NCBI GenBank assembly: GCA_965658655.1
Contig: CBFHTA010000002.1
Coordinates: forward strand, 32,001-96,000
Length of the DNA stretch: 64,000 nucleotides
Reading direction: 5' to 3'
Source: Candidatus Babelota bacterium
GTDB lineage: Bacteria; Babelota; Babeliae; Babelales; CAIQNR01
In this document: one piece after another, positions 13,969-60,837 of the stretch
Numbering within the stretch: the first letter of the stretch is position 1
Layout: each line of letters opens with the position of its first letter
The notes under the pieces: model-generated
What the model saw: only the letters and a program-made list of their open reading frames with translations
Told to the model about the DNA's origin: nothing
The model's database searches: none
Translations under genes and position numbers: made by a program

Positions 13969-15050
13969 TTCTACATCTTTCTTTAATTGCATCAGTTGGC
14001 CCAGATAAAATAGGCAAGCTGGTAAAAGTTCTTAAAAAAGAAAAAAATCCTGCTAGCTGGTATGCTTATCGGCAACAAGATTTTATGCGTTTAGGGATGA
14101 CAGCACGGAATGCTCAAACCATTGTTGCGGGTCTTGCCAATGCGCAAATTCTTAAAGAAGAATTAGAACTTATCGAAAAATATGCGATTAACTGGACCAC
14201 GATTTTAGATGCTGATTACCCAGCACTTTTAAAAGAAATTCATACTCCGCCTGCAGTTTTGTATTGGCGAGGAGAACCGGTGTGGCAAACCACAGAAAAA
14301 ACAGTTGCATTTGTTGGCGCGCGTAAAGGTACGGCATATGGTCAGAGAGTCGTTAACGCTGTTATTCCAACTTTGGTTGCGGCAGGATACACTATTGTTT
14401 CTGGAGGTGCTTATGGTATCGATACTATGGCTCATCGAGCTACCCTTGAATGTGGTGGAAAAACAATTGTGGTGATTGGTGCAGGTCTTTTAATCCCGTA
14501 TTTGGCTGGTAATCAAAAGCTATTTGAGCAAGCGGCATCTGCAGGAAGTGTTGTAGTCAGTGCTTTTCCATTGATGCACGGTGCTGATAAATGGACATTT
14601 CCGGTACGTAATAGAATTATTGCTGGGTTGTCTCAAGGCTGTGTGGTGGTGCAAGCGGCTAAGAAAAGTGGTGCTTTGATCACCTCAAGTTATGCCTTAC
14701 AAGAAGGTAGACAGGTCTTTGCAGTACCCGGACCGTTTGATGATGAGCTAAGCGTAGGATGCCTAAATTTGATCAAGCAGGGCGCAAAAGTGGTGTGTAG
14801 TGCTCAAGACGTCTTAGAAGAATTTGGAGCTCAAGAAGAGATTTTTGAGCAAATAGAGATCTCTACGGTTGAAGCGCCTAAGCAAAAATTAGACAATTCT
14901 ATTTTAGTCCATTGCGCTCAACCAATAAGTTTATCTGAGCTTATTCAAAAAACAGGCTTAGAAGAAAATAAGCTTAAACAGGATCTTTTTGATCTTCAAT
15001 TAGATGGCAAAATAGAGCAAGATTTTGCCGGTCTATGGAAGCTGCTTTAA
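13950..15050 (+). CDS. dprA: DNA-processing protein DprA/Smf
   Basis: YPALLKEIHTPP, VSGGAYGID, FPVRNRIIAGLS, SGALIT, VFAVPG. Confidence 0.96.
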   Translation: MYKQQLVLHLSLIASVGPDKIGKLVKVLKKEKNPASWYAYRQQDFMRLGMTARNAQTIVAGLANAQILKEELELIEKYAINWTTILDADYPALLKEIHTPPAVLYWRGEPVWQTTEKTVAFVGARKGTAYGQRVVNAVIPTLVAAGYTIVSGGAYGIDTMAHRATLECGGKTIVVIGAGLLIPYLAGNQKLFEQAASAGSVVVSAFPLMHGADKWTFPVRNRIIAGLSQGCVVVQAAKKSGALITSSYALQEGRQVFAVPGPFDDELSVGCLNLIKQGAKVVCSAQDVLEEFGAQEEIFEQIEISTVEAPKQKLDNSILVHCAQPISLSELIQKTGLEENKLKQDLFDLQLDGKIEQDFAGLWKLL

Positions 15051-15133
15051 GTTTAAAACCTTGACCTGTTGAGGTTTTGGTTTGTGTTGCTACAATTATA
15101 AGTAGTATTTTAAGTGGATTTCTGGAGGTTGTT

Positions 15134-15332
15134 GTGAAAAAAAAACTAATATTTTTTATTTTTTCGACCTGAAGATGATTTGCGTGAGTTAAATAAATTA
15201 GCTGAGACACAAGAAAAGATTGCTAAAGAGAAAAGAGAGTTTTATGAAAATTTATCTCGCGAATCTCTTAAGCTTATGAGAGAGAGAGAAGGAATAACTG
15301 AGGAAGAGTGGAATAAAAAGTATGGCAAATAA
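15134..15332 (+). pseudogene. Broken signal-peptide start (VKKKLIFFIFS) fused to a 5'-truncated gene end
   Basis: GTG 15134 is homologous to the start of 16077..16469 and stops at 15170. In the +1 frame, 15168-15332 reads PEDDLRELNKLAETQEKIAK...WNKKYGK* with no own start. Confidence 0.6.
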
Positions 15333-15364
15333 GTTAGTCTAAAAATTGATTTTGAAAGGTTATT

Positions 15365-15733
15365 ATGAAAAAGTTTTTATTATTGACGCTAATATTATTT
15401 GGGAGTGTGTTTGCCAATATGAAACAAAATGCATTTAAAGAAAAGATGATACAAGAAGCCGAAAAGGAAATGTTTTGTGCTGAAAAAGATTTAAACAAAT
15501 CTCGAATAAAAAGATCTTTAGTGGCCACTTTTGGACTGTTGCTTATGATAGCATCTCTAGATAGTCATTTAAAGAATCATGATAATATTACGGGGCCAGT
15601 TTTGATGGGTCTAGTGGGTCTAGGAAATAGTCTTTTTCGATTTGAGCTAGAGTGGTTTATAAATAAGAAAAGTTATAGTAATGCAAATCGAGCTTTAATC
15701 AATGTTTTACGTAAAGTTGATGAGCAAAAATAA
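15365..15733 (+). CDS. Small orphan secreted/membrane protein (cassette 1)
   Basis: AAGG RBS, signal peptide MKKFLLLTLILFGSVFA, hydrophobic hairpin. Confidence 0.75.
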   Translation: MKKFLLLTLILFGSVFANMKQNAFKEKMIQEAEKEMFCAEKDLNKSRIKRSLVATFGLLLMIASLDSHLKNHDNITGPVLMGLVGLGNSLFRFELEWFINKKSYSNANRALINVLRKVDEQK

Positions 15734-15790
15734 TTATTGTTATAAGGTTATTTAAGAAGACCAGTTTTAGGGTTGCACCCGACTTTTTTA

Positions 15791-15978
15791 AAATAGAGAT
15801 CTCTACGGTTGAAGCGCCTAAGCAAAAATTAGACAATTCTATTTTAGTTCATTGCGCTCAACCAATAAGTTTATCTGAGCTTATTCAAAAAACAGGCTTA
15901 GAAGAAAACAAGCTTAAACAGGATCTTTTTGATCTTCAATTAGATGGTGAAATACAGCAAGACTTTGCCGGCTTATGG
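15791..15978 (+). repeat. Copy 2 of dprA 3' end
   Basis: 8 mismatches in 188 nt versus 14851-15038 (manual count). Confidence 0.97.
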
Positions 15979-16076
15979 CAAGTGGTTAAAACCTTGAAAT
16001 CCCACTCTAGTTGAGTTATTTCTCTTTTTTTGCTATAATTTTATAAGTTTAAATTAAATGACTTCTGGGGGTTGTT

Positions 16077-16469
16077 GTGAAACAAAAACTTATACTTTAT
16101 ATTTTTTCGAGTTTATTTTTAGGGTTGCACCCAAGTAATTCTTTTTTTGATAATGAGTTGAGTCGTACAGAAAAATATATTTCATTTTTAAAGTATAAAG
16201 AGTCGCAGCTAAGAGAAAAAGAGAAAGGAATTAAAACAAATTTAATGTTGCAATTCCAAAAAAACTTACAAAATATTACTATGGGGCCACCGAGACAATT
16301 AGGTTTAGTAAGGATGATTAGTTTAGCTTCTTTTTTAGTGAATTATGTGCCGGCTACTGTGCATTTAAGTTTGACTTATACTGATAACAAGACCACTCAA
16401 AAAGAGTTGTCTACCTGTAAAAATTACTCTGACATGCTTAAATCATTAAATAAATCTTTTATTGCATAA
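16077..16469 (+). CDS. Small orphan secreted protein (cassette 2)
   Basis: TGCTATAAT at 16031, GGGGG RBS, GTG start, signal-like N-terminus. Confidence 0.75.
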   Translation: MKQKLILYIFSSLFLGLHPSNSFFDNELSRTEKYISFLKYKESQLREKEKGIKTNLMLQFQKNLQNITMGPPRQLGLVRMISLASFLVNYVPATVHLSLTYTDNKTTQKELSTCKNYSDMLKSLNKSFIA

Positions 16470-16484
16470 GTTGGAAATTTTTTG

Positions 16485-16723
16485 CTTAGAAGAGTTTGGA
16501 GCTTAAGAGGAGGTTTTGGAGCAAATAGAGATCTCTAGGTTTGAAGCTCCTAAGGCAAAAGCAGACAATTCTATTTTTAGTTCACTGGGTTCAACTTATA
16601 AGTCAGTCTTGACTCATTTAAAAAACAGTCTTAAAAGAAAGTAAGCTTAAACAGGATCTTTTTGATCTTCAATTGGATGGTAAAATACAGCACGACTCCG
16701 CAGGTTTATGGCAGCTTACTTGA
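16485..16723 (+). pseudogene. Copy 3 of dprA 3' end, degraded with indels
   Basis: Matches 14813-15050 (cttagaag..ttggagct, aaatagagatctcta, aagcttaaacaggatctttttgatcttcaat) and ends KQDLFDLQLDGKIQHDSAGLWQLT*. Confidence 0.92.
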
Positions 16724-16756
16724 AGCCCTTTGTTTTTTTGCCTTTTCCGTTTATTT

Positions 16757-16765
16757 TGCTATAAT
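16757..16765 (+). promoter_or_regulatory. Extended -10 promoter upstream of rpmF
   Basis: TGCTATAAT; homologous elements follow dprA tail copies 1 (15088) and 2 (16031). Confidence 0.65.
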
Positions 16766-16832
16766 TATCCTATCTATTAGGCGCCTAAGGCGTCATTTCT
16801 ATTAAAGATTTTAGGCTACCAAGGAGTTTGTC

Positions 16833-17126
16833 ATGCCAGTACCAAAGAGAAAAAGATCTCGTCAGAGAAGAGATAAGCGTTTTGCTAACAAAGGCGTTAA
16901 AGTTCGTTCTATTTCAAGCTGTACCAACTGTTCAGAAGCTGTGTCTTCTCATACAGCGTGTATGTCTTGTGGATTTTATAAAGGCCGCAAAGTGTTAGCT
17001 ACTAAGTCTGACCGTTCAGTTCGACGTGCAGATGAGCGCAAAGAAAAAGAAGGAAAACAAGAAGCATTACGACAAAAGCTTGAAGCTCAAGCAGCTCCAA
17101 TTGAAGAGCCAAAAAAAGCTGAGTAA
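16833..17126 (+). CDS. rpmF: 50S ribosomal protein bL32 with charged C-terminal extension
   Basis: MPVPKRKRSR, CxxC...HxxCxxCGFYKGR. Confidence 0.95.
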   Translation: MPVPKRKRSRQRRDKRFANKGVKVRSISSCTNCSEAVSSHTACMSCGFYKGRKVLATKSDRSVRRADERKEKEGKQEALRQKLEAQAAPIEEPKKAE

Positions 17127-17173
17127 TCTTTTGTTTGAGTAGTATGAAGAAAAAACTATAGAGATCGTTCGTA

Positions 17174-17875
17174 GTGAGGATGAGCATGATACAAGCATTA
17201 GTCAAAGATTGGTACCGCGAAATTGTTGAAGATAAGTATTCACTTGCTTTAACCGTAGTAATAATTTGTGGTGGCGCCTATTGGGGTGGTAGCGAGTTAC
17301 GTTTGCGCTACAAAAAACACGTGGGTGGAAAATCACAGATTGTTGTTGCAGAAGCGATAGAAGAGTATGACAAAGCTTTATATAACCATCTTGAAAAAGA
17401 GGGTGGACAAGAACTTGCGTCGCAACAATTTGATGATGTTCAAATTGGTTTTGATACTATTTTAAAACAACATAGTGGTTCTTCGTTGGTTCCGTATGCT
17501 CTTTCGTTTCAAGCAGATACGTTTGCTTTAAAGGGTGACTTTAAACAAGCGCTTATTACTTTAGAGGATGGTATTAAAAAAATGTCTTCTTCTGCTCCTG
17601 GTTATTACTTACTCAAAACTAAATATGCGCTTTTACAACTTGATGCTCAACAAGAAACAGAAGGTGTTGCCTTACTGCGTGAACTTGCTTTTAATTCAAG
17701 TAATCCAACGTTTGATACAGCTGCCTTTTTCTTAGGTTACTACTACTGGGCTAAGCACGATAAAGATAAAGCTCGTGATGCTTGGAAGCAACTAGAAACA
17801 ACAGAAAATAGTAAGTCTAAAAAGGGTGCATCTCCTTGGTTGCAAGCGGTAAAAGAAAAGCTTCAAAACGTTTAG
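17174..17875 (+). CDS. Membrane-anchored TPR protein (YfgM-like)
   Basis: N-terminal TM helix followed by TPR-like helices. Confidence 0.65.
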   Translation: MRMSMIQALVKDWYREIVEDKYSLALTVVIICGGAYWGGSELRLRYKKHVGGKSQIVVAEAIEEYDKALYNHLEKEGGQELASQQFDDVQIGFDTILKQHSGSSLVPYALSFQADTFALKGDFKQALITLEDGIKKMSSSAPGYYLLKTKYALLQLDAQQETEGVALLRELAFNSSNPTFDTAAFFLGYYYWAKHDKDKARDAWKQLETTENSKSKKGASPWLQAVKEKLQNV

Positions 17876-17884
17876 GAATACGTA

Positions 17885-19306: not shown

Positions 19307-19324
19307 AAAGAAGAGGAGAGGGGC

Positions 19325-20284: not shown

Positions 20285-20488
20285 TAGTTAGTTATTTATA
20301 AGTCATCCTGATTGATACATCCGTTTAATGGTGTTCACTTAGGGTGGCTTTTTTTATTACATTTATATCACTTGGAATGAACTAGATAGTGTTGTTTGAT
20401 TACATAAGAAAGCATTAGGTTTATCTCGAGTGTTTTTTTATAAAAGTAACGTCAACGAATTATACTATAATCATTACAATTGAGCAGC

Positions 20489-20520: not shown

Positions 20521-20560
20521 AGTACTAGCTAAAGTCTACTAAGGTTTTACTACTATAACC

Positions 20561-30813: not shown

Positions 30814-30888
30814 TGGGGCGTAGCCAAGTGGTAAGGCATCCGGTTTTGATCCGGACATTCGGAGGTTCGAACCCTTCCGCCCCAGCCA
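30814..30888 (+). tRNA. tRNA-Gln(UUG)
   Basis: tggggcg acceptor, anticodon arm tccgg-ttTTGat-ccgga, ggttcgaac T-loop, encoded CCA. Confidence 0.97.
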
Positions 30889-37990: not shown

Positions 37991-38168
37991 GCAAAAAACA
38001 ACCGAAATTATTTTCAACAATAAAAAGCCAACAGATTTCAACCTCTTTTTAAGGTCAAAATAACAGGTTATGAGTTTTTTATTGCATTTTGTTTCCTAGA
38101 TATCGTATCCTTGTCTTTAAGCGTAAAAAAATGAAATCGGGCAGAAGCCCAAAAAAATGGAGAAAATA

Positions 38169-38792: not shown

Positions 38793-38812
38793 GTTTAGTA
38801 TCTAAGGAAATT

Positions 38813-43258: not shown

Positions 43259-43990
43259 ATGAAGAAACGTATAGTCATAGGTTTACTATTTGTTGGTGCC
43301 GCGTATGGTGCGTATACAGATAATGGAAAATTAACGCACGAGGAATGGCCTTCTAGTAATCCGAACTATTTGAATGCTATTCCAGGAGAACGAAGTTCAG
43401 AACAAAGAAGAAAAGATTTATTGAGGTCTCATAAATTAGATGAACAAGTACCAAGAGCAACAATTTTGGATGCTTCTTCTCGAAGAAACGCTCCTAATTA
43501 TTTGAATGCTGCCCCAGCATTGAATAGTTCGCATAATACATTTCTTCCACCTTCTTCTGAGCCAACTCATGAAAGTTTAAAGGATATTCAAGAACGATTA
43601 GGTGGTACATCTTTTCAAGTTCCTCCTCCCTTACCCCCAAGAAGAAGTAAGAAGCCGGTAGCTAGCAAAGCTAAGCCTTCTCCAGATTATCTTAAACCTG
43701 ATGCTGTTGTGACTCAGCACAACGCTTTAGGGTTGGGCGATGAGGATGATTTTGGAACTGTTGTTACTAGATCTGGAAGAGCTGTGGTACAAGATGCTCC
43801 AGCCCCGCCCCCAAGACGAAGTAAGAAGCCGGTAGTTAAAAAATCTAAGCCTTCTCCTGATTATCTTGAACCTCACAACGCTTTAAACTCGGACGATGAA
43901 GATGATTTTGGAACTGTTGTTACTAGAGATGGAAGAGCTGTGGTACAAGATGCAGATGACTTTTTTGCAGGTTTTGAATCTGAACTTTAA
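43259..43990 (+). CDS. Secreted proline-rich orphan with internal duplication
   Basis: GGAGG RBS, signal peptide, duplicated PPPRRSKKPV..KPSPDYL..DEDDFGTVVTR.GRAVVQDA. Confidence 0.85.
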   Translation: MKKRIVIGLLFVGAAYGAYTDNGKLTHEEWPSSNPNYLNAIPGERSSEQRRKDLLRSHKLDEQVPRATILDASSRRNAPNYLNAAPALNSSHNTFLPPSSEPTHESLKDIQERLGGTSFQVPPPLPPRRSKKPVASKAKPSPDYLKPDAVVTQHNALGLGDEDDFGTVVTRSGRAVVQDAPAPPPRRSKKPVVKKSKPSPDYLEPHNALNSDDEDDFGTVVTRDGRAVVQDADDFFAGFESEL

Positions 43991-51005: not shown

Positions 51006-52364
51006 ATGAAGTGTCGCTTTTTCGGGTTATTCTTGTTGGTGTCTATGCAAGTTAATGCTGTAACTGTATTCAGTGATACAAACCCGCCTGGGAAATGGAC
51101 ACACGAAGAGGTTGCTGCCGGAAGTCTTGATAGTAGTTTTAGTTCCGATGGCAAGGTAACCACTGCTATTGGTAGTGGTAATGATAGTATTTGGGGAGTT
51201 GCTATTCAGCCTGATGGTAAGATTGTAGTTGCCGGTGAAAGTCATAATGGTTCAAATGATGATCTTGTAGTGGCGCGTTATAACAGTGATGGGTCTCTTG
51301 ATATGAGATTTGGGGATTCTGGCCAAAAAATTACTACTTTTGGTAGTAGCGAGGATCATGGATATGGAGTCGTGATCCAACCTGATGGTAAAATTGTAGT
51401 TGCCGGTGATAGTAATAATGGTTCAAATTATGATTTTGCTGTTGTAAGGTATAACAGCGATGGTTCTCTTGATGCTACTTTTAATAGTACCGGCAAAGTT
51501 ACCACTGCTATTGGAAGTGGTCACGACATTGGACGGTCAATCGCTCTTCAGCCTGATGGTAAGATTGTAGTTGCTGGTTATAGTCATAATGGTTCTGATT
51601 ATGATTTTGCCGTTGTACGGTATAACAGCGATGGTTCTCTTGATACTACTTTTAATAGTACTGGTAAAGTAACCACTGATATTAGTGGCGCTACAGAATT
51701 TGGATATGGAGTTGTGATTCAACCCGACGGTAAGATTGTAGTTGCTGGTGCGAGTTACAATGGTTCTGATTATGATTTTGCCGTTGTGCGTTATAACAGC
51801 GATGGTTCTCTTGATACTACCTTGAATAGTACCGGTAAAGTAACCACTGCTGTTGGAGCTAGTAATGACTATGGTAGAGAGATCGCTCTTCAGCCTGATG
51901 GTAAGATTATAGTTGCTGGTTATAGTGACAATGGCTCAAATGATGTTTTTGCTGTTGTGCGTTATAACAGCGATGGTTCTCTTGATACTACTTTTAATAG
52001 CACCGGTAAAGTAACCACTGTTGTTGGGAGTAACGATAGTTTTGGTTATACAGTGTTACTTCAATCTGATGGTAAGATTATAGTTGCCGGTAGAAGTAAC
52101 AACGGTTCAGATAATGATTTTGCTGTTGTGCGTTATAACAGCGATGGTTCTCTTGATACTACTTTCGATTCTGATGGTAAAATAGCAACTGATTTTGGAA
52201 GTGGAGCAGATAGTGTTTATGCTCTTGCTCTTCAATCCGACGGTAAAATAGTCGCGTCTGGATTAGCAGATAATGGTTCAAACACTGATTTCGCATTAAC
52301 TCGATATAGTAATAATATTGCTTCGCTTAAATTAGCAAAGCGAGACATAGGCTTTGTGGCGTAA
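51006..52364 (+). CDS. Secreted delta-60-repeat beta-propeller protein 1
   Basis: Repeats QPDGKIVVAG...DFAVVRYNSDGSLDTTF. Confidence 0.92.
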   Translation: MKCRFFGLFLLVSMQVNAVTVFSDTNPPGKWTHEEVAAGSLDSSFSSDGKVTTAIGSGNDSIWGVAIQPDGKIVVAGESHNGSNDDLVVARYNSDGSLDMRFGDSGQKITTFGSSEDHGYGVVIQPDGKIVVAGDSNNGSNYDFAVVRYNSDGSLDATFNSTGKVTTAIGSGHDIGRSIALQPDGKIVVAGYSHNGSDYDFAVVRYNSDGSLDTTFNSTGKVTTDISGATEFGYGVVIQPDGKIVVAGASYNGSDYDFAVVRYNSDGSLDTTLNSTGKVTTAVGASNDYGREIALQPDGKIIVAGYSDNGSNDVFAVVRYNSDGSLDTTFNSTGKVTTVVGSNDSFGYTVLLQSDGKIIVAGRSNNGSDNDFAVVRYNSDGSLDTTFDSDGKIATDFGSGADSVYALALQSDGKIVASGLADNGSNTDFALTRYSNNIASLKLAKRDIGFVA

Positions 52365-52454
52365 ATTTGGCATGTTTCTATCTTGACGAGACTGATAAAA
52401 ACATGTCAAAGTGAAGAACTAACCTGTCTTTTAACTAAGCGTAAGGAGAGAAAG

Positions 52455-53732
52455 ATGAAACGTTATTTTTTGGGGTTATTACTAGTGGTGTCTGCGCAAA
52501 TTAATTCTGTAGTTGTGTATAATGATGCAAATCCTCCCGGGAAATGGACCCATCAAGAGGTTACGCCTGGGGTAATAGATATTACTTTTGGTAGTAATAA
52601 TACCGGGTATGTAACTGCTGACTTGGGGATAAATGATCAAGATCATCAAATTAATGCTTTGGTTAAACAATCTGATGGTAAATTAGTAGGTGCCGGGTAT
52701 AGCAACAATTCGAGCGACAAGACACGTTGGGCCTTAGCACGTTTCAGTGAGGATGGAGTGCTTGATACTACTTTTGGTGGAAGTGATACAGGATATGTGT
52801 TTTTGAATTTCGGTGATAGCAATGTAGATCATACTCTTTATGCGTTAATTCAGCAAGCTGATGGTAAATTAGTGGCTGCAGGATTTAGCAGAAATTCAAG
52901 TGGATACAATAGATGGGCGTTGGCACGCTTTAGTAAAGATGGAGTTCTTGATACTACTTTTGGTGGGAGTGATACCGGGTATGTTTTCTTAGATTTTGGT
53001 GATAGTTCTCGTGATCATGAGATTAATGCTCTTGTAGAAACTTCTGAAGGAAAGTTAGTTGCTGGTGGTTATAGTGATAACACTGATGACGATGAACGTT
53101 GGGCCCTTGCAAGATTCAGTAAAGATGGCGTGCTCGATACCACGTTTGGTGGGAGTGACACCGGGTATGTTTTCTTAGATTTTGACACGGGAGGTCAGGA
53201 CCATGAGATTAATGCTCTTGTAGAGACTGCTGAGGGTAAGTTAGTTGCAGGTGGACATAGTGATAATGCAAGCAATAAAAAGAGTTGGGCACTCGCAAGA
53301 TTTAGTAAAGAGGGAGTGCTCGATACCACGTTTGGTGGTAACAGTACGGGTTACGTTACATTAAATTTTGGTGATGCTACAAGAGAACATACTTTGCGTG
53401 AACTGATTCTTCAGAGTGATGGAAAGTTGTTAGCTGGTGGTTATAGCGATAATACGAGTGATATGAATAGATGGGCAATTGCACGGTACAGTGAAGATGG
53501 AGTGCTTGATACTACTTTTGGTGAGAGTGGTACTGGATATGTCTTTTTGAATTTTGGTGATGATAGCAATGACCATGAAATTGATGCAATGCTTTTAGAG
53601 AGCAACGGAAAGATAGTAGTAGCGGGCGCAAGTGAACTTACCGGGAGTTATGAACGCTTTGCCTTGGCCCGTTTTAGTAATAATATTCCACCCCTTAATT
53701 TGATAGCTGCTTTTGCAGGAATGTTAGGATAG
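52455..53732 (+). CDS. Secreted delta-60-repeat protein 2
   Basis: Repeats DGKLVAGG...RWALARFSKDGVLDTTFG; start moved to ATG 52455 (AAGGAG RBS). Confidence 0.9.
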   Translation: MKRYFLGLLLVVSAQINSVVVYNDANPPGKWTHQEVTPGVIDITFGSNNTGYVTADLGINDQDHQINALVKQSDGKLVGAGYSNNSSDKTRWALARFSEDGVLDTTFGGSDTGYVFLNFGDSNVDHTLYALIQQADGKLVAAGFSRNSSGYNRWALARFSKDGVLDTTFGGSDTGYVFLDFGDSSRDHEINALVETSEGKLVAGGYSDNTDDDERWALARFSKDGVLDTTFGGSDTGYVFLDFDTGGQDHEINALVETAEGKLVAGGHSDNASNKKSWALARFSKEGVLDTTFGGNSTGYVTLNFGDATREHTLRELILQSDGKLLAGGYSDNTSDMNRWAIARYSEDGVLDTTFGESGTGYVFLNFGDDSNDHEIDAMLLESNGKIVVAGASELTGSYERFALARFSNNIPPLNLIAAFAGMLG

Positions 53733-53740: not shown

Positions 53741-53880
53741 CTTCATTAAAACATAGGCCTCAAAGATAAGGCGCATATCGACATCTACATAAGTTGATGG
53801 CGCCTTTTTGCTTCCAAGACTCTTTCATACGGTACGGTTCAGATTATAATTTTGCGTTAGAACAATATTGCTTCTTTAGA
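53741..53880. pseudogene. Junction relic: displaced 3' end of the flippase-like gene fused to a delta-60 gene fragment
   Basis: 53800-53833 matches 55551-55584 at 32/34 nt; the following acggttcagat...aatattgcttc resembles 52102-52125 and 52313-52324. Confidence 0.8.
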
Positions 53881-54012
53881 GTTGGGTACCTCCTGGGGGA
53901 ATAGTAGGATAGCATCTTTTTTCTTTGTCTTTCTTCTATCTTGACGAAGTTGATAGAAACATGGCAGAGTGAAGAACTAACGTATCTTTTAACTAAATAT
54001 AAGGAGAGAAAG

Positions 54013-55389
54013 ATGAAACGTTATCTCATGGGGTTATTACTAGTGGTGTCTACGCAAATTAATGCTGAAACTGTGTATAGTGACAAAACTCCTCCCGGGA
54101 AATGGACCCATCAGGAGATGAAACCTACAGCTTTATTGACTTCCTTTGATGGTGGGAATGGTAAGATATCAAGTGATTTAGGGGCTAATACTGTTGTAAA
54201 GGGTATGGTAGTTGATAAAAACGGTGACATTTATGTTTGTGGTTCCCATGGATCTACAGCTCATGCTATGGTGGCTCGTTATAAAAAAACTTCTAACGGG
54301 GTTCATGCTTTAGATACTTCATTTGACGGTACTAATGGCTATGTGAAATTTGCTACCGAGGCCGCTTCAGTTGCCAATGCTATAGCTTTGGACGGAGAGA
54401 GTATTTATGTTGTTGGTAGCGGAACTGTGTCATCAGCAGGTAAATTAATAGCAAAACTTAAAAAATCAGATGGAAGCCTAGACACAACGTTTAGTACTGA
54501 TGGAATTTACCTTTCTACTGCTCTTGGAACAAGCGCAGTAGGTCATGGCATTGTAGTTGATGACAAACATGTATATGCGGTAGGTACAGACGGAACTGAT
54601 GCTACTGTTATAAAAGTTACTAAGTCAGCCGGTGTTGCAGACACTGTTTTTGATGGAGATTCTGGTACGGGCGGTAGCAATGGGGAGTTAACAGTCGATG
54701 TAAGTGGCAGTACTGACATAGCTTATGATGTTGTTGTAGATGGCACTACTCTTTACATTGTCGGTGATGGAGGAAGTGATTATTTTGTTGTTAAAATGGA
54801 TGCACCAACTGGAAAACTTCATACTGCTGCAAATGGCTTTACCGCATTTGCTACTAATGGTATTGCCTATACTTCTGGTGATTCCAATGCTGTGGCAAAA
54901 TCGGTAGTACTTGATAAGGATTTTCTTTATGTGGCAGGTAATAATGCAAGTACCTCTGCTGTTATACAAAAGTATAATAAATTAACAGGAGGATTGAAGG
55001 ATGATTTTGGTACAAGTGGTAGATGGGAAAGTGCTACTGTTGGTGCTCTTAATAGTGTAAAGCTCTTAAATAGAAAGCTTTATGTTGCGGGCGTAAAAAG
55101 TTCAAAAATGTCTGTAGCTCGATTGAATACGACAGGTACGAGTCCTTTAGATACTTCATTTTTTACTAATGGTTATGATGTAGCATTAGGAGATAACGCA
55201 ACACTTGGAGCAGTTGCTCTTGATTTTCTAAAGGAACCTCATTTACCAATTATACTTGCAGGTTATGATGCTAGTAGTGGGAACTTTATTGAATTAACTG
55301 TTTATGAAAACGATGTTGATATTCTTAGTGCTGCTCGCGTTGCAGGTCTTTCTGCTGGGCATCTTTCTGGTGGGCTCACCCATAGTTAG
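54013..55389 (+). CDS. Secreted divergent delta-60-like propeller protein 3
   Basis: Shared PPGKWTHQE N-terminus, LDTSF/LDTTF repeats; start ATG 54013. Confidence 0.85.
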   Translation: MKRYLMGLLLVVSTQINAETVYSDKTPPGKWTHQEMKPTALLTSFDGGNGKISSDLGANTVVKGMVVDKNGDIYVCGSHGSTAHAMVARYKKTSNGVHALDTSFDGTNGYVKFATEAASVANAIALDGESIYVVGSGTVSSAGKLIAKLKKSDGSLDTTFSTDGIYLSTALGTSAVGHGIVVDDKHVYAVGTDGTDATVIKVTKSAGVADTVFDGDSGTGGSNGELTVDVSGSTDIAYDVVVDGTTLYIVGDGGSDYFVVKMDAPTGKLHTAANGFTAFATNGIAYTSGDSNAVAKSVVLDKDFLYVAGNNASTSAVIQKYNKLTGGLKDDFGTSGRWESATVGALNSVKLLNRKLYVAGVKSSKMSVARLNTTGTSPLDTSFFTNGYDVALGDNATLGAVALDFLKEPHLPIILAGYDASSGNFIELTVYENDVDILSAARVAGLSAGHLSGGLTHS

Positions 55390-55397
55390 ATAATGTT

Positions 55398-56648
55398 TTA
55401 ATAATTAAAAAAAGCCATTAAGGTTGCGCTTAAAAGCCTCAGCGCCTGCACCATAACCACCCACTGTAAAAGAGATACAGCCTGAGGCCACGCAATCAAG
55501 CAACCGAGACCTAAGATATAAGGCGCATACGACAACCATAGAAGTCGATAGCGCCTTTTTACTTCCAAGACTCTTTCATATGGTGACAACAACACCTCAA
55601 ACATATATCCGAGTGCAACAATAAAAAATAACACTAACATTTCTTGTGTAAGTACCTGAGTCTTAACAAAGAAAACACCAATGGTTAAAAACGTTAACGG
55701 AATAATAAGCGCAATAACAGTTTTGAAAAGTCTTATGAATGCTTTTTCATATACTGTTTGTGTGTTGTTTAAAACAAGTGCGTAAGACAATAATGCTGTG
55801 TCTGATGAACCCAAAATTCTAATAGCAATACGTTGAAAAAAAAGTGCTCCATCGTGTACTACTTTAAAGAGGTTGGCAGGAATTGCTCCAAAAGCATTTG
55901 TTAAAAACGGAAATAAAAAGTTTCTTTCTGATAAAGATTTAATACAAGTTGCAGACCACATCATAAACGAATGTTCTAGAAAGGCTTTTGTGAGGCTTCT
56001 TAAAGAAGGAGCTATTTTTTTACTGTATGTTATTGTTTCTAAAAGATTTGGCAATAACGCTATTGAACCAATCAAAACACCACCATTAGAAGCAATTTTA
56101 GTTGTTAGTAAAAAAGTTACTATTTGTGTACTTGAATGGGGGTGGGCAAGGTACCAAAAGTTACATATCATTTCTGTGAGCATGCATACGGCTTGCAACA
56201 AATTGAATTGTTTTTGCCAAAAGTGCGCATGGTAAATCGTCTTGAAAAGCTCACTGACTCCACCTATTGCAAAGAGTGTAAGCGCGTAAGAAATAAATGT
56301 TTTTTGTGTAACAAAGTGCGAAAAAACATACCATATAATGGGTAATCCAATCAACAGGACAATTGATTGAAGTGTTAACACAAGAGCAATAAATTGTTTA
56401 TGTGTTTGTTGATGTTGCGCAAACTCCGGACAGTAGCGAGGAATCGACTTTCTAAAACCACAATCTAACCAGAGTAAAATAAGGAAAACAATACTATTTA
56501 TTGTGGCCCATGCTGAAAACAACTCAGGAGAAAGGGTTTTGTACAATGCGAAAGAAAGTGCAACGTAAAAAATTTTATAAGTGACATATAAAAAACTGTT
56601 CCATTGCAGAGCGTTTGAAAATTTTGAAAAAAGAATATTTTTATTCAT
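55398..56648 (-). CDS. Polytopic MOP-superfamily (flippase-like) membrane protein
   Basis: Many hydrophobic helices; paralog of the upstream gene (LQWN/IKWN, N.L.P, YER/YEK). Confidence 0.6.
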   Translation of the reverse strand: MNKNILFSKFSNALQWNSFLYVTYKIFYVALSFALYKTLSPELFSAWATINSIVFLILLWLDCGFRKSIPRYCPEFAQHQQTHKQFIALVLTLQSIVLLIGLPIIWYVFSHFVTQKTFISYALTLFAIGGVSELFKTIYHAHFWQKQFNLLQAVCMLTEMICNFWYLAHPHSSTQIVTFLLTTKIASNGGVLIGSIALLPNLLETITYSKKIAPSLRSLTKAFLEHSFMMWSATCIKSLSERNFLFPFLTNAFGAIPANLFKVVHDGALFFQRIAIRILGSSDTALLSYALVLNNTQTVYEKAFIRLFKTVIALIIPLTFLTIGVFFVKTQVLTQEMLVLFFIVALGYMFEVLLSPYERVLEVKRRYRLLWLSYAPYILGLGCLIAWPQAVSLLQWVVMVQALRLLSATLMAFFNY

Positions 56649-56706
56649 AATCCCTTGACCAATCTACTTAAGAAGGGTGAAAACTTTGCTTAGAATCGAT
56701 TCTCGT

Positions 56707-58086: not shown

Positions 58087-58297
58087 TTTTACCTTTCAAA
58101 ACAACATGAGGAGACCAATGAAGTATACCACACTTTTAACAGGTTTAAATCATCGGATCATTTTTGGGTTACGGCAAAATAGGCTAGAACAGGTGAAAAT
58201 AAGCGGGTGAAAAAAATATAAATCATGATATACTCTTATACAGCATGAATGAGCTTTTCCTATTGATGAGAGTATCTTTGGGAAGGGGAATTTTAAC

Positions 58298-58831: not shown

Positions 58832-58885
58832 TATAAAAAAGTTTGCCGACTTCTTTTCTTTGCTGACTGTGTTATTATTACCTAC

Positions 58886-59815
58886 ATGAAAAATAAACTT
58901 ATAATTATCTACGGACCTACAGGGGTCGGAAAAACAGATTATGCACTGAGTCTGGGGAAAAGCCTGAATATCGAAATCATCAATGGTGATGTGGGTCAAT
59001 TCTATGAACCGCTGGCAATTGGAACTGCCAAGCCGGATTGGAAGAAAGAACCTATTCCTCATCATTTATTCGACGTTCTTGAAAAGCCAGAAGATTGTAC
59101 TGTGGTTAATTACCGATCTCTTGTCTTAGAAAAGGTCAAAGAGGTTTGGAGTCGTGGGGCATTTCCCGTTATAGTTGGTGGGTCAGGTTTTTATATTAAG
59201 TCGCTCTTCTTTACCCCTAAGGGTGAGCCTTGTGGTCAACAGGAAGCCTTAAGTGAAAAAACAGAAGAGCTTTGGCAGATTCTAAAAAAAAGAGATCCAA
59301 AGCGAGCTGCAGAAATTTATCAACAGGATCGCTATCGTATTGAGCGGGCGCTTGCGCTTCTTAATAAAGGGGCTACGCCGTCTGAGTGTGTTCCTGAGTA
59401 TGAATCGATAAAGGCCGATGTTTTGCTGTGTTTTTTAAATCGACCACGAACCGAACTTTATGATCGAATTAATCAGCGAACACATATAATGTTTGAACAG
59501 GGGTGGCTTGCTGAAATTGAACCTTTGATGAATACCGACTGGAAAGAATTTTTGGTTCGTAAAAAACTTATTGGTTATAACGATATTATTACTTTTCTAC
59601 AAGGTGATCGGACCGATCAAGAAAGAGAGTTTTTGTATACTTCTATCCAGAAAAAGACACGTAATTATGCGAAGCGCCAATTGACGTTTTGGCGTATGCT
59701 TGAAAAACTAATGAATCAGTATTTCGAGCAACCATCAAAAGCAATTGAGGTTGATGTTGCTCAAGTTACTCCAGAAAAGTTTAAAGAAAGTGTAGAGCGT
59801 TTTATTAAAGGATGA
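58886..59815 (+). CDS. miaA: tRNA dimethylallyltransferase
   Basis: GPTGVGKT, IGTAKP, PHHLFD, VGGSGFY, TRNYAKRQLT. Confidence 0.96.
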   Translation: MKNKLIIIYGPTGVGKTDYALSLGKSLNIEIINGDVGQFYEPLAIGTAKPDWKKEPIPHHLFDVLEKPEDCTVVNYRSLVLEKVKEVWSRGAFPVIVGGSGFYIKSLFFTPKGEPCGQQEALSEKTEELWQILKKRDPKRAAEIYQQDRYRIERALALLNKGATPSECVPEYESIKADVLLCFLNRPRTELYDRINQRTHIMFEQGWLAEIEPLMNTDWKEFLVRKKLIGYNDIITFLQGDRTDQEREFLYTSIQKKTRNYAKRQLTFWRMLEKLMNQYFEQPSKAIEVDVAQVTPEKFKESVERFIKG

Positions 59816-60525
59816 CGGTAATGAAGATCTGGGAAAAAATAAGAGATTTTACTGCTACTGCAACCACTCTGCGAGAAGACGAGACAGGGCTCTTTGTGCC
59901 TAATAGGCAAGTGAGTTGGTTGCTTTCGTTTGTATTACTGTTTGGTTTTTTAACTTTTATAACGGGTTATTTCTGGGGTCAAAGAAAAGCAATTGAACGG
60001 TTTGTAAATAAAGTAGAAGAAGAATCGTTTGCAGACAGAATTAGTTATTCACTTTATACCATGAACGACAGAGAAGTGAGTGAATTCGAAGCTCCAGATA
60101 GTGAAAATGGTCTAGGTGAATCCGAAAAAATTAACGAAGAAGGAACTGCGCAGCCATCAGTTGTTGTTGCACAAGCAGAAGTTTTACCTTCACAACAAGA
60201 ACCACCACAAACTATTCATAAACCTAATCCCACAACTGTTATGGATGAAGTTAACGAAAAACCAAAGCAGATATTTGTTGCTCCATTGGCTGGGTTTGGT
60301 ACACTACATGCTGCAAGTAGTTTTGCTCGTCGTGTGCGAAAGTTTGACTCTGATGTAAAAGTTAAAACTCGCATAAGTTCGACTCCAAAGGGTAAAAAGG
60401 TTGCATGGTATCAAGCTGTAACAGGAGAATTTGATGATCGTGAAGAACTCGAACGTATTCTCGGAAGAATAAAAACAGCTGAACATATTAAAGATATAAA
60501 GATTATTAAAAGAAGAAAGGTTTGA
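59812..60525 (+). CDS. Membrane-anchored protein with C-terminal SPOR-like domain
   Basis: TM helix, linker, LAGFG..AA..F, WYQAVTGEF. Confidence 0.6.
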   Translation: MTVMKIWEKIRDFTATATTLREDETGLFVPNRQVSWLLSFVLLFGFLTFITGYFWGQRKAIERFVNKVEEESFADRISYSLYTMNDREVSEFEAPDSENGLGESEKINEEGTAQPSVVVAQAEVLPSQQEPPQTIHKPNPTTVMDEVNEKPKQIFVAPLAGFGTLHAASSFARRVRKFDSDVKVKTRISSTPKGKKVAWYQAVTGEFDDREELERILGRIKTAEHIKDIKIIKRRKV

Positions 60526-60527
60526 GA

Positions 60528-60731
60528 GTGACAAGCACAAAGAAAGGTCAAAAAAAGCAGAATGTAATTGGTACAGGAATTTTAATAGGTGTGTTGGCGG
60601 CTCATCTTGGAGGGTTAACAGCTCCTGTTGTTTCAGCAGTAGCTAAAGCTAAATCAGCGCTGCGCAAAAAAGGTCCTAAAGCACCTTGCTGTAAATGTGC
60701 ATGCCCAGCGTGCCCCGGATCTGTTAAATAA
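60528..60731 (+). CDS. Small orphan protein: hydrophobic segment, basic tract, Cys cluster
   Basis: AAAGG RBS 7 nt before GTG 60528; ends PCCKCACPACPGSVK. Confidence 0.6.
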   Translation: MTSTKKGQKKQNVIGTGILIGVLAAHLGGLTAPVVSAVAKAKSALRKKGPKAPCCKCACPACPGSVK

Positions 60732-60756
60732 AATAGAAAAAATAGTTATTGGTCGT

Positions 60757-60837
60757 AAGCGTATTAATGAACAAGCTAAATCGGCTGAACACAGTAAAAA
60801 TATAAGAATTATTAAAAGAAAGGTTGTACGCTCATGA
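60757..60837 (+). pseudogene. Displaced duplicate 3' end of the SPOR-like gene
   Basis: Translates [26 protein letters not shown] versus ERILGRIKTAEHIKDIKIIKRRKV* at 60451-60525. Confidence 0.8.

What the first reader, a model, noticed from the sequence alone, without database searches (positions are those of the whole stretch)
14813..60837. Recurrent gene-tail-replacing cassette insertion with no visible integrase
Seen: at three independent loci an orphan gene lies between the intact 3' end of a resident gene and a decayed second copy of that same 3' end. These are dprA (tails at 14851, 15791, 16485), the SPOR-like gene (60451-60525 vs 60757-60837) and the flippase-like gene (55510-55584 vs 53761-53833). 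Weaker traces occur at typA and ftsK. At dprA and the SPOR-like gene the distal relic directly adjoins the next housekeeping gene (the rpmF promoter; a TGA/ATG overlap with surA). Established: integrative elements often restore a target gene by supplying a new 3' end. Inference: here the cargo is single small genes (0.2-1.5 kb), the duplications are 70-240 bp of different unrelated genes, and no recombinase is in the window. That points to homology-driven (RecA/DprA) Campbell-type capture of small gene circles or duplication-then-replacement, as a genome-wide route for acquiring secreted effector genes without disrupting core genes.
Basis: partly seen in the sequence, partly recalled or inferred. 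Interest (0 to 1): 0.88.

Follow-up and report, generated by a model that had tools for sequence, protein, structure and literature searches.

The report
Gene-boundary duplications leaving displaced gene tails
In a tiny genome of an uncultured marine bacterium, short stretches that straddle gene borders have repeatedly been duplicated, leaving decayed second copies of gene ends beside small extra genes; this is a real, genome-wide scar of local duplication and insertion rather than a new kind of mobile gene cassette.

Summary
The three loci are real, sit at the stated coordinates and score well above chance. The "weaker traces" at typA and ftsK were not found. The pattern recurs across this 0.93 Mb genome and in two relatives. 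It also affects gene heads: 14 tail relics downstream against 8 head relics upstream.

The cassette-capture reading holds only in part.
- SPOR locus: the "orphan" is a decayed copy of the first codons of surA. This is a plain ~306-bp tandem duplication, and the same-genus genome G001 shows the undisturbed overlap.
- Flippase-like locus: the "orphan" is a paralog of its neighbour, so gene plus tail were duplicated together.
- dprA, younger event: a tandem copy of tail + rpmF promoter + start of ORF Y.
- dprA, oldest event (T3/Y), and several loci outside the window: unrelated AT-rich DNA lies between the copies. This matches the known but unexplained "insertion with long target duplication".

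The genome has no integrase, serine recombinase or rve transposase beyond two Xer-like genes. recA, dprA and comEC are present. Relics seem to persist because they carry the neighbour's signals, for example the rpsT terminator inside the ftsI tail.

Import from diverged lineages remains possible, since uvrA relic changes are synonymous and cargo differs in G001. This scan has reported the same insertion mode on other genomes. Interest is moderate.

The parts
13950..15050 (+). dprA, intact gene (366 aa)
   Evidence: Pfam DNA_processg_A, E 7e-69. Orthologs found in 29 of 31 genomes searched.
14813..15050 (+). T1, the functional dprA tail. Copy T2 starts at the equivalent of 14851; copy T3 at the equivalent of 14813.
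15069..15096 (+). Promoter-like site after T1 (TTGAGG-16-TACAAT with TG). It is a copy of the rpmF promoter region.
   Evidence: one of the three best + strand sites in 14700-17200. Alignment.
15136..15171 (+). Y' stub a: copy of the first ~36 nt of ORF Y.
   Evidence: Read from the sequence. IG1+stub against IG2+Y start has 93 of ~121 nt identical.
15172..15762 (+). 590-bp AT-rich insert that splits the Y' stub. It holds a 50-aa ORF (15180-15332) and ORF X (15365-15733, 122 aa, signal-peptide-like start). GACC is present at both ends.
   Evidence: GC 0.305, 2nd percentile of genes. X not found in 40 relatives at E<=0.01. Weak N-terminal match to the G001 ORF at the same site, E 0.003.
15763..15790 (+). 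Y' stub b: continuation of the Y copy up to about nt 70, joined directly to T2.
15791..15990 (+). T2, relic copy of the last 200 nt of dprA. The stop codon is lost.
   Evidence: 187 of 200 nt identical to T1. The differences are mosaic: 2 in the first 156 nt and 11 in the last 44 nt, Fisher p 1e-6.
16011..16039 (+). Promoter-like site after T2 (TTGAGT-17-TATAAT with TG). A copy of the rpmF promoter, now placed in front of Y.
16077..16469 (+). ORF Y (130 aa). An orphan, AT-rich, with a hydrophobic N-terminus.
   Evidence: Not found in 40 relatives (one noise-level match, E 0.008). Only itself in the 5.8-billion-protein search. GC 0.288, lowest percentile. No similarity to the rpmF/TPR region.
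16485..16723 (+). T3, the oldest dprA tail relic. It directly abuts the rpmF promoter.
   Evidence: 192 of 231 nt identical to T1. Changed codons: 11 synonymous, 20 non-synonymous. Three stops. Alignment.
16738..17126 (+). rpmF promoter-like site (16738-16765) and rpmF (16833-17126).
   Evidence: The promoter region is conserved in G001.
51006..53732 (+). Two tandem DUF5122 beta-propeller repeat genes (51006-52364 and 52383-53732).
   Evidence: Pfam DUF5122, E 5e-92 and 2e-55. Shared upstream/N-terminal block (families D8, D10, D13).
53761..53833 (-). Relic of the flippase-like gene's 3' region, lying between paralog 2 and paralog 3.
   Evidence: blastn 83.5% over 79 nt, E 1e-13. Two stops in the relic reading.
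53941..55389 (+). The 'orphan' at this locus. It is the third paralog of the DUF5122-type genes.
   Evidence: BLASTP against 52383-53732: E 5e-36, 38% identity over 279 aa, with a much more similar N-terminus. tblastn hits to both neighbours.
55398..56648 (-). Flippase-like multi-pass membrane gene (family not confirmed). The duplicated segment is 55510-55584.
   Evidence: No Pfam or NCBIfam family. The G001 ortholog is 70% identical and followed by a convergent repeat-protein gene.
59812..60525 (+). SPOR-like gene. Its last ~83 nt (60440-60522) are copy 1 of the duplication.
   Evidence: Pfam SPOR, E 8e-4, below the curated cut-off. Sequence and alignment.
60528..60731 (+). ORF67: decayed duplicate of the surA-like gene's first codons. 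Its GTG sits where the surA ATG sits in copy 2.
   Evidence: BLASTP residues 11-30 against 11-30, E 0.001. In a fixed start-to-start register, 51 of 105 nt are identical against a null of 27.8 +/- 4.9; none of ~22,500 offsets reaches that. GC 0.441.
60745..60837 (+). Relic of the SPOR tail. It keeps the ancestral end and the TGA/ATG overlap with the next gene.
   Evidence: G001 has the same overlap with no duplication.
60834..62786 (+). SurA/PpiD-like PPIase chaperone gene.
   Evidence: Pfam Rotamase and SurA_N_3. NCBIfam matches are below their cut-offs.

Best explanation
These are scars of short local DNA duplications (about 0.3-1.8 kb) whose ends fall inside genes.

How the pattern arises (established logic of tandem duplication):
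- A segment running from inside gene A to a point downstream is copied head to tail.
- The first tail copy stays attached to A and remains functional.
- The second tail copy is redundant and decays. It comes to lie next to the following gene.
- A breakpoint inside the downstream gene gives the mirror image: a decayed gene head upstream.

Shown for the window:
- SPOR/surA is a bare ~306-bp junction duplication.
- The flippase-like locus is a duplication of a DUF5122-type gene together with the flippase tail.
- The younger dprA event duplicated tail + rpmF promoter + the first ~70 nt of ORF Y.

Inferred:
- The copies arose in place by slippage, template switching or unequal exchange at short shared patches.
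- The tail copies later exchanged sequence by gene conversion.

At the oldest dprA event (T3, then Y behind a copied rpmF promoter) and at several loci outside the window, unrelated AT-rich DNA lies between the copies. That is 'insertion with long target duplication', and its mechanism is unresolved.

Why only such events are seen (inferred): the genome is about 92% ORF-covered, and gene ends overlap the neighbour's terminator, promoter or start codon. Only events that duplicate the shared stretch leave both neighbours working. The relic is then kept as the neighbour's signal.
For: The DNA after copy 1 is homologous to the DNA after copy 2:
- ORF67 and the surA head align in register.
- IG1 + Y' stub against IG2 + Y has 93 of ~121 nt identical.
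- The 482-aa ORF is a paralog of its neighbour, E 5e-36.

Single-copy or simpler states in relatives:
- In G001 the SPOR stop overlaps the surA start.
- rpmF lies 85-162 nt after dprA in 7 of 11 relatives' loci. In 2 it lies 614 and 711 nt away, and 2 loci lack rpmF.
- In G001 the flippase-like gene already faces one repeat-protein gene.

A textbook case outside the window: lysS tail + C2H2 zinc-finger gene + DJ-1 head is duplicated, with both relics in the middle spacer.

Heads as well as tails: at protein level the non-paralog hits are 14 tail-downstream and 8 head-upstream, against 2 and 0 reversed-query controls among 803-804 genes.

No mobility enzyme:
- PF00589 gives only two Xer-sized genes, both outside the window.
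- PF00239 gives 0 and PF00665 gives 0.

Relics carry the neighbour's signals:
- The ftsI-tail relic, read in the rpsT direction, is a 7-bp GC stem followed by a U run. It folds with z -4.9 and is kept in G000 and G001.
- The three best promoter-like sites in 14700-17200 each follow a tail copy.
- The SPOR relic and the P-loop-kinase relic keep the overlapping start of the next gene.

Most relics decay as untranslated DNA:
- T3 has 11 synonymous and 20 non-synonymous changed codons and three stops.
- The flippase relic has 3 and 9, with two stops.

Assembly: contigs of the probable source run cover every dprA junction with 0 differences, and a second sample holds pieces.
Against: - Y and the 590-bp X insert are unrelated to the flanking DNA and sit in the lowest 0-2% of genes for GC. 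Duplication alone does not explain where they came from.
- T1 and T2 are mosaic, 2 of 156 against 11 of 44 differences.
- In 36 nt of the distal part (up to the last codons), the functional T1 differs more from the G001 ortholog (10 of 36) than the relics T2 (4) and T3 (7). This is my count from the alignment. It needs gene conversion, a burst of change, or import.
- In the uvrA relic outside the window, 7 of 8 changed codons are synonymous (binomial p 8e-4). By my reading of the alignment, nearly all are derived on the relic. A decaying scrap should not look like this.
- Three sites hold other cargo in G001: ftsI/rpsT, rluB and dprA.
- Tail-downstream is the largest class, 14 against 8. The difference is not significant (my estimate, binomial p ~0.3).
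- My gene calls are a crude greedy ORF set.
- No other genome was scanned, so enrichment relative to ordinary bacteria is untested.
Confidence: 0.6

Rival explanations
1. Homology-anchored import. DNA from a diverged lineage carries the end of a core gene followed by an accessory gene. It enters by natural transformation. It recombines through the shared tail, either as a small circle (Campbell type) or as a linear piece with one homologous and one illegitimate end. This leaves tail - cargo - tail. The tails act as anchors for recombinase-free gene exchange.
For: - recA (62783-63847) and dprA are present, and a ComEC-family gene is present.
- In the uvrA relic 7 of 8 changed codons are synonymous, as if both copies had evolved as working genes.
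- The distal end of T1 is more diverged from G001 than T2 and T3 are. T1 and T2 show mosaic identity.
- The same site holds different cargo in G000 and G001 at ftsI/rpsT, with the relic present in both, and at rluB.
- Cargo with unrelated flanks is AT-rich: ankyrin, the 560-aa ORF, GNAT, X and Y are in the lowest 0-4% of genes.
- Furuta et al. 2010 (PMC2853133, passages read) report that most of their cases occur in naturally competent species.
Against: - SPOR/surA, the flippase-like locus, lysS/DJ-1 and the younger dprA event all contain copies of adjacent resident DNA, so they need no donor.
- Head relics occur upstream as well.
- By my reading of the alignment, nearly all uvrA changes lie on the relic branch relative to G001. 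Two diverging working copies would be expected to share them about evenly.
- X and Y have no homolog anywhere that was searched, so no donor lineage is visible.
Confidence: 0.25
2. Site-specific integration by a recombinase acting in trans, for example the two Xer-like tyrosine recombinases. This would resemble integrative elements that bring a substitute 3' end for their target gene.
For: - Two PF00589 genes exist in the genome, at C2:108488-109030 and C1:519236-519751.
- The outcome, an intact gene plus a displaced old end, resembles e14 or phage 21 in icd. That comparison is recalled from memory and is also named in note e1-7658106.
Against: - The duplicated stretches are unrelated sequences of very different lengths, 36 to about 240 nt.
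- Some are gene heads.
- No integrase lies in or next to any cargo.
- Several 'inserts' are copies of neighbouring DNA.
- Two tyrosine recombinases of 304 and 311 aa is the usual XerC/XerD complement (established knowledge).
Confidence: 0.03
3. Assembly artefact: repeats were wrongly expanded or joined in a metagenome-assembled genome.
For: - The genome is metagenome-derived; the run label is marine plankton metagenome.
- T1 and T2 share 156 nt at 98.7% identity.
Against: - Independent de Bruijn contigs of run X1 span T1 -> X -> T2 start (14978-15820), T2 end -> Y -> T3 (15918-16671) and T3 -> rpmF (16645-17100) with 0 differences. X1 may be the source of this DNA, so it is not independent.
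- A second sample, X2, holds 14750-15103, 15502-15733 and 16397-16653.
- The copies differ by decay, stops and indels, and the G001 assembly carries its own ftsI relic.
Confidence: 0.02

Closest known systems
Insertion with long target duplication (Furuta, Abe & Kobayashi 2010, NAR, PMC2853133: abstract, passages and Discussion read; it cites Nobusato et al. 2000 as its reference 37, which I did not read)
   Same: - DNA is inserted with no mobility gene and is flanked by direct repeats of tens to hundreds of bp.
- Those repeats are single-copy in a related genome.
- The repeats can include the 3' end of a neighbouring gene.
- The mechanism is unknown.
- Matching cases here: dprA T3/Y in the window; uvrA/ankyrin, ftsI/Ntox37, rluB, P-loop kinase, dnaE head and FKBP head outside it.
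   Different: - The cargo here is not restriction-modification genes. It is orphan ORFs, an ankyrin protein, a GNAT, and an Ntox37 toxin with a small partner ORF.
- Half of the window's events have no foreign insert at all.
- Here the relics can be read as the neighbour's terminator, promoter or start codon.
Tandem duplication units spanning adjacent genes (Tsuru & Kobayashi 2008, MBE, PMC2568036, abstract read) and transformation-triggered tandem duplication (Johnston et al. 2013, PLoS Genet, PMC3784515, abstract read)
   Same: - The unit of duplication or exchange is the 3' part of one gene + spacer + 5' part of the next gene.
- Duplicates can arise and be reshuffled by homologous exchange, including exchange with self DNA taken up by transformation.
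   Different: - Those papers treat a paralog cluster of a pathogen and 100-900 kb merodiploids bordered by IS copies.
- Here the units are 0.3-1.8 kb, border unrelated core genes, and have been fixed and have decayed.
Integrase-borne elements that supply a new 3' end to their target gene (e14 and phage 21 in icd; islands in tRNA/tmRNA genes). Recalled, not read here.
   Same: The target gene stays intact and its old end is displaced downstream of the insert.
   Different: - No integrase is present.
- There is no common att core.
- The inserts are 0.2-1.8 kb.
- Heads are affected as well as tails.
- Several inserts are copies of the neighbour.
Minimal mobile elements of Neisseria: variable cassettes between conserved genes, exchanged by transformation. 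Recalled, not read here.
   Same: The same inter-core-gene site holds different small cargo in G000 and G001, at dprA-rpmF, ftsI-rpsT and rluB.
   Different: As I recall them, minimal mobile elements leave no duplicated flank. Exchange between lineages is not shown here.

Membership tests
Tandem segmental duplication across a gene boundary | The DNA following copy 1 is homologous to the DNA following copy 2 (head-to-tail unit). | tested here: met
   - SPOR: ORF67 matches the surA head in register.
- dprA U1/U2: IG + Y start, 93 of ~121 nt identical.
- Flippase-like locus: the flanking genes are paralogs, E 5e-36.
- Not met for T2/T3 beyond the promoter copy.
Tandem segmental duplication across a gene boundary | A related genome shows the single-copy state. 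| tested here: met
   - G001 has the SPOR/surA overlap.
- dprA-rpmF are 85-162 nt apart in 7 of 11 relatives' loci.
- G001 has one repeat-protein gene beside the flippase-like gene.
Tandem segmental duplication across a gene boundary | The novel joint lies at a short patch shared by the two parental sites. | tested here: inconclusive
   At the U1/U2 joint (about 15785-15795), both parents (T near 14840-14855 and Y near 16143-16160) have a T run followed by GA. This was read by eye, with no statistics. The older joints are too decayed to read.
Insertion with long target duplication | The insert is flanked by direct repeats longer than 30 bp that are one copy in a genome lacking the insert. | tested here: met
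   - dprA T3/T2 flank Y, and 7 of 11 relatives' loci are empty.
- uvrA: an ~81-nt repeat, and G001 lacks both the ankyrin gene and the relic.
- ftsI: the relic is present in both G000 and G001. The other relatives' loci fetched were not inspected for an empty site.
Insertion with long target duplication | No integrase or transposase in or beside the insert. | tested here: met
   Pfam scans of the cargo and neighbouring ORFs. Genome-wide: PF00589 at two distant Xer-like genes only; PF00239 0; PF00665 0. Other transposase families were not searched.
Insertion with long target duplication | The inserted DNA is unrelated to the target's surroundings. | tested here: inconclusive
   Met for Y and the X insert (GC). 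Not met for SPOR and the flippase-like locus.
Insertion with long target duplication | The cargo is a restriction-modification system, as in the published screens. | tested here: not met
   Cargo ORFs have no R-M domains. One locus outside the window holds what looks by eye like a methyltransferase-like fragment. Pfam found no family for it.
Integrase-mediated element restoring a target gene's 3' end | The element carries an integrase, and the same att core is reused. | tested here: not met
   No integrase is near any locus. The repeats are unrelated sequences of 36 to about 240 nt.
Campbell-type or homology-facilitated capture from another lineage | One tail copy descends from a foreign allele, or a circular or donor form exists. 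| tested here: inconclusive
   - Hints in favour: uvrA synonymous-only changes and a derived T1 distal end.
- No joints were seen in contigs, which cannot show rare forms.
- No close relatives were found in the metagenome scan; the best hit was 46% identical on a short segment.

The most novel reading that the evidence does not exclude
In this clade of tiny marine genomes, the ends of core genes act as homology anchors for recombinase-free exchange of small accessory genes between diverged lineages. The exchange would use DprA, RecA and ComEC. The cargo would include toxin/immunity pairs, ankyrin proteins and orphan secreted proteins. The duplicated boundary stretch would be both the scar and the device that keeps overlapping terminators, promoters and coupled start codons of tightly packed core genes working. 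It would also hand a copied promoter to the newcomer, as with Y behind a copy of the rpmF promoter.
Probability: 0.2. Interest if true: 0.7.

Novelty: new member of a known kind. Interest (0 to 1): 0.42.

Why it matters
This shows how a very gene-dense, reduced genome can still gain or spawn small genes between essential genes without breaking them. It does so by duplicating the stretch that two neighbours share.

It gives unusually legible examples:
- a bare junction duplication at SPOR/surA, which may represent an intermediate state;
- a three-layer array behind dprA;
- a relic that doubles as the rpsT terminator.

It also extends the poorly understood "insertion with long target duplication" beyond restriction-modification cargo. 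For annotation, it warns that some "orphan genes" here are decayed copies of a neighbour's first codons.

Tried and rejected
- Strain-level comparison. A metagenome scan with DprA gave 33 loci. The best segment identity was 46%, on a short fragment, so there were no close relatives.
- Reads. Only Logan contigs were available. Laying three runs gave no joints, no loose ends of note and no circle junction. Contigs cannot show rare forms, so this says nothing about absence.
- Homologs of the cargo.
  - Y: 1 noise-level match (E 0.008, five stops) among 40 relatives, and only itself in the 5.8-billion-protein search at near lengths.
  - X: none in 40 relatives.
  - X against Y, and the G001 ORF against Y: no BLASTP similarity.
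- Y as a decayed copy of rpmF or the TPR gene: rejected. 144 of 300 shuffles score at least as high.
- Free local alignment of ORF67 against the surA head was not significant (81 of 300 shuffles). The homology rests on the fixed-register test and in-register BLASTP.
- The X insert against the G001 spacer was not significant (32 of 300). The best alignment does sit at both start codons.
- typA and ftsK traces: at null level.
- Empty-site check for the P-loop-kinase locus: the neighbour gene was not found in 5 relatives.
- Known RNA families in the spacers of the window, L002, L010 and L013: only one tRNA, at 30814-30885.
- Technical failures: one script failed on a BLAST option and was replaced. 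One reference had a wrong frame and was corrected.
- Ku/LigD and other transposase families were not searched.

Full report
**Setting**

- The window is G000:C2:32001-96000, part of a 928,713-bp genome in 4 contigs with GC 0.37.
- Completeness is estimated at 95%.
- The only runs holding this DNA are labelled marine plankton metagenome.
- I did not determine the taxon. Relatives in the same order have genomes of 0.7-1.5 Mb.
- Gene calls for the genome-wide work are my own greedy ORF set: 920 ORFs of at least 50 aa, covering about 92% of the DNA. It contains some spurious small ORFs.

**Observation**

All three loci exist as described.

*dprA (13950-15050, Pfam DNA_processg_A)*
- The last 200 nt recur at 15791-15990, with 187 of 200 nt identical.
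- The last ~238 nt recur at 16485-16723, with 192 of 231 aligned nt identical, three in-frame stops and indels.
- T3 runs straight into the rpmF promoter region, which is conserved in the same-genus genome G001.

*SPOR-like gene (59812-60525; SPOR only at E 8e-4)*
- Its tail recurs at 60745-60837 and ends in the TGA/ATG overlap with the SurA/PpiD-like gene.

*Membrane gene at 55398-56648*
- No family was found for it, so the label "flippase" is unverified.
- A segment of its 3' region (55510-55584) recurs at 53761-53833.

*Chance*
- In a Smith-Waterman scan of the last and first 120 nt of 806 genes against 4 kb on either side, reversed queries never exceeded 22.
- dprA scored 96 and SPOR 29.
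- At protein level (80 residues against 5 kb in three frames) the flippase tail scored 65. The threshold is 60, which 2 of 803 reversed controls reach.

*Not confirmed*
- The GTPase gene at 7991-9811 is LepA by NCBIfam (905 bits, cut-off 534).
- Its tail and the ftsK tail score at null level.
- No other gene of the window passes either scan.

**What lies between the copies**

*SPOR locus*
- The 67-codon ORF (60528-60731) is not foreign.
- Its GTG lies exactly where the ATG of the downstream gene lies in the second copy.
- BLASTP aligns residues 11-30 with residues 11-30 of the SurA-like protein (E 0.001).
- In the fixed start-to-start register, 51 of the first 105 nt are identical against 27.8 +/- 4.9 for other offsets. 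None of ~22,500 offsets reaches that.
- A free local alignment was not significant. The case therefore rests on register.
- G001 has the undisturbed state: the SPOR stop overlaps the surA start by 4 nt.
- The relic, not the working tail, keeps the G001-like ending.
- This is a plain ~306-bp tandem duplication of the gene junction.

*Flippase-like locus*
- The intervening 482-aa ORF is a paralog of the preceding DUF5122 repeat gene. BLASTP gives E 5e-36, and the first 60 residues are much more similar than the rest (family D10).
- In G001 the membrane gene is followed by one convergent repeat-protein gene. I judged its likeness to the DUF5122 paralogs by eye and did not scan it.
- The relic between paralogs 2 and 3 is what a tandem duplication of gene + flippase tail leaves behind.

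*dprA locus: three layers*
- Each tail copy is followed by a copy of the rpmF promoter region. The three best promoter-like sites on the + strand of 14700-17200 are at 15069-15096, 16011-16039 and 16738-16765.
- After T1 and T2 the similarity continues through a ribosome-binding stretch into the start of ORF Y, with 93 of ~121 nt identical.
- The first unit holds only a Y stub. The stub is split after ~36 nt by a 590-bp AT-rich insert that carries ORF X. It resumes for ~28 nt and then joins T2.
- The younger event therefore duplicated about 356 bp: tail from 14851, promoter, and the first ~70 nt of Y. Both parental sites share a T run followed by GA at the joint. I read this by eye, with no statistics.
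- The older event placed Y behind a copied rpmF promoter, between T2 and T3.
- Y shows no similarity to the rpmF/TPR region that a simple duplication would have copied.
- Y has GC 0.288, the lowest percentile of genes.
- Y has no homolog in 40 relatives or in the large protein collection. X likewise has none in 40 relatives.
- Whether X and Y are acquired genes or ORFs born in spacer DNA cannot be told.

**Relatives at the dprA-rpmF junction**

| Loci (of 11 relatives fetched) | State |
|---|---|
| 7 | rpmF lies 85-162 nt behind dprA |
| 1 (G001) | 614 nt, holding one 124-aa ORF and no relic |
| 1 (G003) | 711 nt, with no ORF longer than 67 aa |
| 2 | rpmF not in the locus |

Sources. G000 has 1,783 nt between the two genes. 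The junction is therefore a repeatedly used site.

**Genome-wide picture**

Self-BLASTN and the two scans give the following protein-level counts, after removing genes whose neighbours are paralogs over at least 30% of their length.

| Class | Hits | Reversed-query controls |
|---|---|---|
| Tail downstream | 14 | 2 |
| Tail upstream | 9 | 1 |
| Head upstream | 8 | 0 |
| Head downstream | 8 | 1 |

Tail-downstream is the largest class but is not significantly larger than head-upstream (my estimate, binomial p about 0.3).

*Clear tandem duplications*
- lysS tail + C2H2 zinc-finger gene + DJ-1 head, with both relics in the middle spacer.

*Relic abutting the next core gene, with unrelated cargo between the copies*
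- ftsI/rpsT: Ntox37 toxin plus a 97-aa ORF.
- uvrA: ankyrin protein.
- rluB: a 560-aa ORF whose C-terminus is the relic.
- A P-loop kinase: the relic is fused to what looks by eye like a methyltransferase-like fragment, with no Pfam family, and overlaps the next start codon.
- In mirror image, dnaE and an FKBP gene.
- Most of this cargo is AT-rich, in the lowest 0-4% of genes. The exceptions are the Ntox37 ORF at the 90th percentile and the 693-aa dnaE-head ORF at the 31st. Duplication-derived ORF67 and the DUF5122 paralogs are not AT-rich.

*In relatives*
- G001 carries its own ftsI-tail relic with a different cargo, a 328-aa ORF.
- G011 has a 207-bp, 93% direct repeat. It is formed by the tail of a 162-aa gene and brackets two small ORFs, one of which weakly matches an addiction-module antidote family at E 1e-3, below the cut-off.

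**Why relics persist**

- Read in the rpsT direction, the ftsI-tail relic is a 7-bp GC stem followed by seven U. It folds with z -4.9, and 0 of 200 shuffles fold as well.
- The hairpin is intact in the tail and the relic of both G000 and G001.
- The end of ftsI thus appears to contain the rpsT terminator on the other strand.
- Putting anything between the two genes requires two copies, one for each neighbour.
- The same logic fits the SPOR and P-loop-kinase relics (the overlapping start of the next gene) and T3 (adjoining the rpmF promoter).
- This is inference from the sequence and is not shown by expression data.

**Mechanism**

- No PF00239 or PF00665 match exists in the genome. PF00589 gives two Xer-sized genes outside the window.
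- recA and dprA are present, and a ComEC-family gene is present.
- The repeats differ in sequence and length (36 to about 240 nt) and affect both gene ends. That argues against a site-specific enzyme.

For three of the four window events the simplest account is in-place tandem duplication followed by decay. Some observations do not fit pure decay:
- T1 and T2 differ at 2 of the first 156 nt but at 11 of the last 44 (Fisher p 1e-6). The copies have therefore exchanged sequence, or one part has another origin.
- In 36 nt of the distal part (up to the last codons), the working T1 is further from G001 (10 of 36) than T2 (4) or T3 (7). This is my count on the alignment, and the numbers are small.
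- In the uvrA relic 7 of 8 changed codons are synonymous (p 8e-4). By my reading of the alignment, nearly all of them sit on the relic branch.
- The ftsI relics share a 3-nt indel with the tail of their own genome. That means either gene conversion or independent events.

Homologous exchange on these repeats is therefore active. Import from diverged lineages cannot be excluded for the loci with unrelated cargo.

**Assembly**

- Contigs of run X1 span each dprA junction with no differences. X1 is possibly the source, so it is not independent.
- A second sample of the same study holds pieces of T1/IG1, of X and of Y->T3.
- No alternative joint appeared. Contigs cannot show rare forms.

**Comparison with what is known**

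- The unrelated-cargo loci match "insertion with long target duplication". In that class, inserts carry no mobility genes and are flanked by repeats longer than 30 bp that are single-copy in a relative. It is reported mostly in competent species and its mechanism is unknown (Furuta et al. 2010, PMC2853133: abstract, passages and Discussion read). One of its figure legends notes repeats overlapping gene 3' ends.
- Transformation can itself trigger tandem duplications (Johnston et al. 2013, PMC3784515, abstract read).
- The e14/icd and Neisseria minimal-mobile-element comparisons are recalled, not read.
- Searches of this scan's notes show the same insertion mode reported on at least eight other genomes, and on this genome's uvrA locus. 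I reached the same closest-known class from the literature before seeing those notes.

**Verdict**

- The finding is a new, well-resolved set of members of known kinds of event.
- The functional twist, relics retained as the neighbour's signals, is worth testing.

Noticed in passing
G000 C1:516506-516577 (L013:3007-3078) and G001 L029:307-387: The 3' coding end of ftsI contains, on the opposite strand, a hairpin plus U run placed as the terminator of the convergent rpsT gene. The displaced ftsI-tail relic next to rpsT keeps this hairpin in both genomes.
   Followed up: partly
G000 C2:212533-212607 (L014:5534-5608): In the uvrA tail relic behind a 555-aa ankyrin gene, 7 of 8 changed codons are synonymous, and nearly all appear derived on the relic relative to G001. 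The stretch before it reads like the end of an ankyrin repeat. G001 has uvrA, a 161-aa ORF and dtd, with no ankyrin gene.
   Followed up: partly
G000 C2:209137-211733 (L014:2138-4734): A 521-aa protein has a C-terminal EndoU nuclease domain. It is followed by a 146-aa ORF and then a 141-aa ORF that copies part of the EndoU region (188 of 241 nt identical). This looks like a polymorphic-toxin locus with an orphan toxin fragment. The whole block is absent between the 161-aa ORF and dtd in G001.
   Followed up: partly
G011 locus L006:19-224 and 855-1061: A 207-bp direct repeat (93%) is formed by the tail of a 162-aa gene. It brackets two small ORFs of 52 and 110 aa. The second weakly matches an addiction-module antidote family, below the cut-off.
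   Followed up: partly
G000 C2:200860-200895 and 202684-202719 (L020): A 36-nt stretch of the rluB tail is 100% identical to the in-frame C-terminus of the following 560-aa ORF. G001 has a different 131-aa ORF at that site.
   Followed up: partly
G000 C1:478541-479954 and C2:1-3900: Eukaryote-like C2H2 zinc-finger proteins with signal-peptide-like starts occur as a tandem pair and as a multi-copy array at a contig end.
   Followed up: no
window 7991-9811: The translational GTPase gene here is LepA (EF4) by NCBIfam, well above the cut-off, not TypA.
   Followed up: yes
window 2642-7774: A 1,710-aa ORF on the minus strand has internal near-identical 300-nt repeats (4127/4430 at 95%; 5127/5835 at 93%) and a 15-nt tandem array at 3363-3482.
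   Followed up: no
window 38430-38805 and 43616-43953: There is a 27-nt tandem repeat array of ten copies inside ORF 38157-38792. There are also two ~80-nt direct repeat pairs inside ORF 43259-43990.
   Followed up: no
window 13230-13532: A 100-aa protein consists of an RRM_1 RNA-recognition motif (E 6e-23). It lies just upstream of the dprA operon.
   Followed up: no
G003 locus L010:2602-3308: The dprA-rpmF spacer is 711 nt long, with no ORF over 67 aa and no Rfam match. Its content is unexplained.
   Followed up: partly
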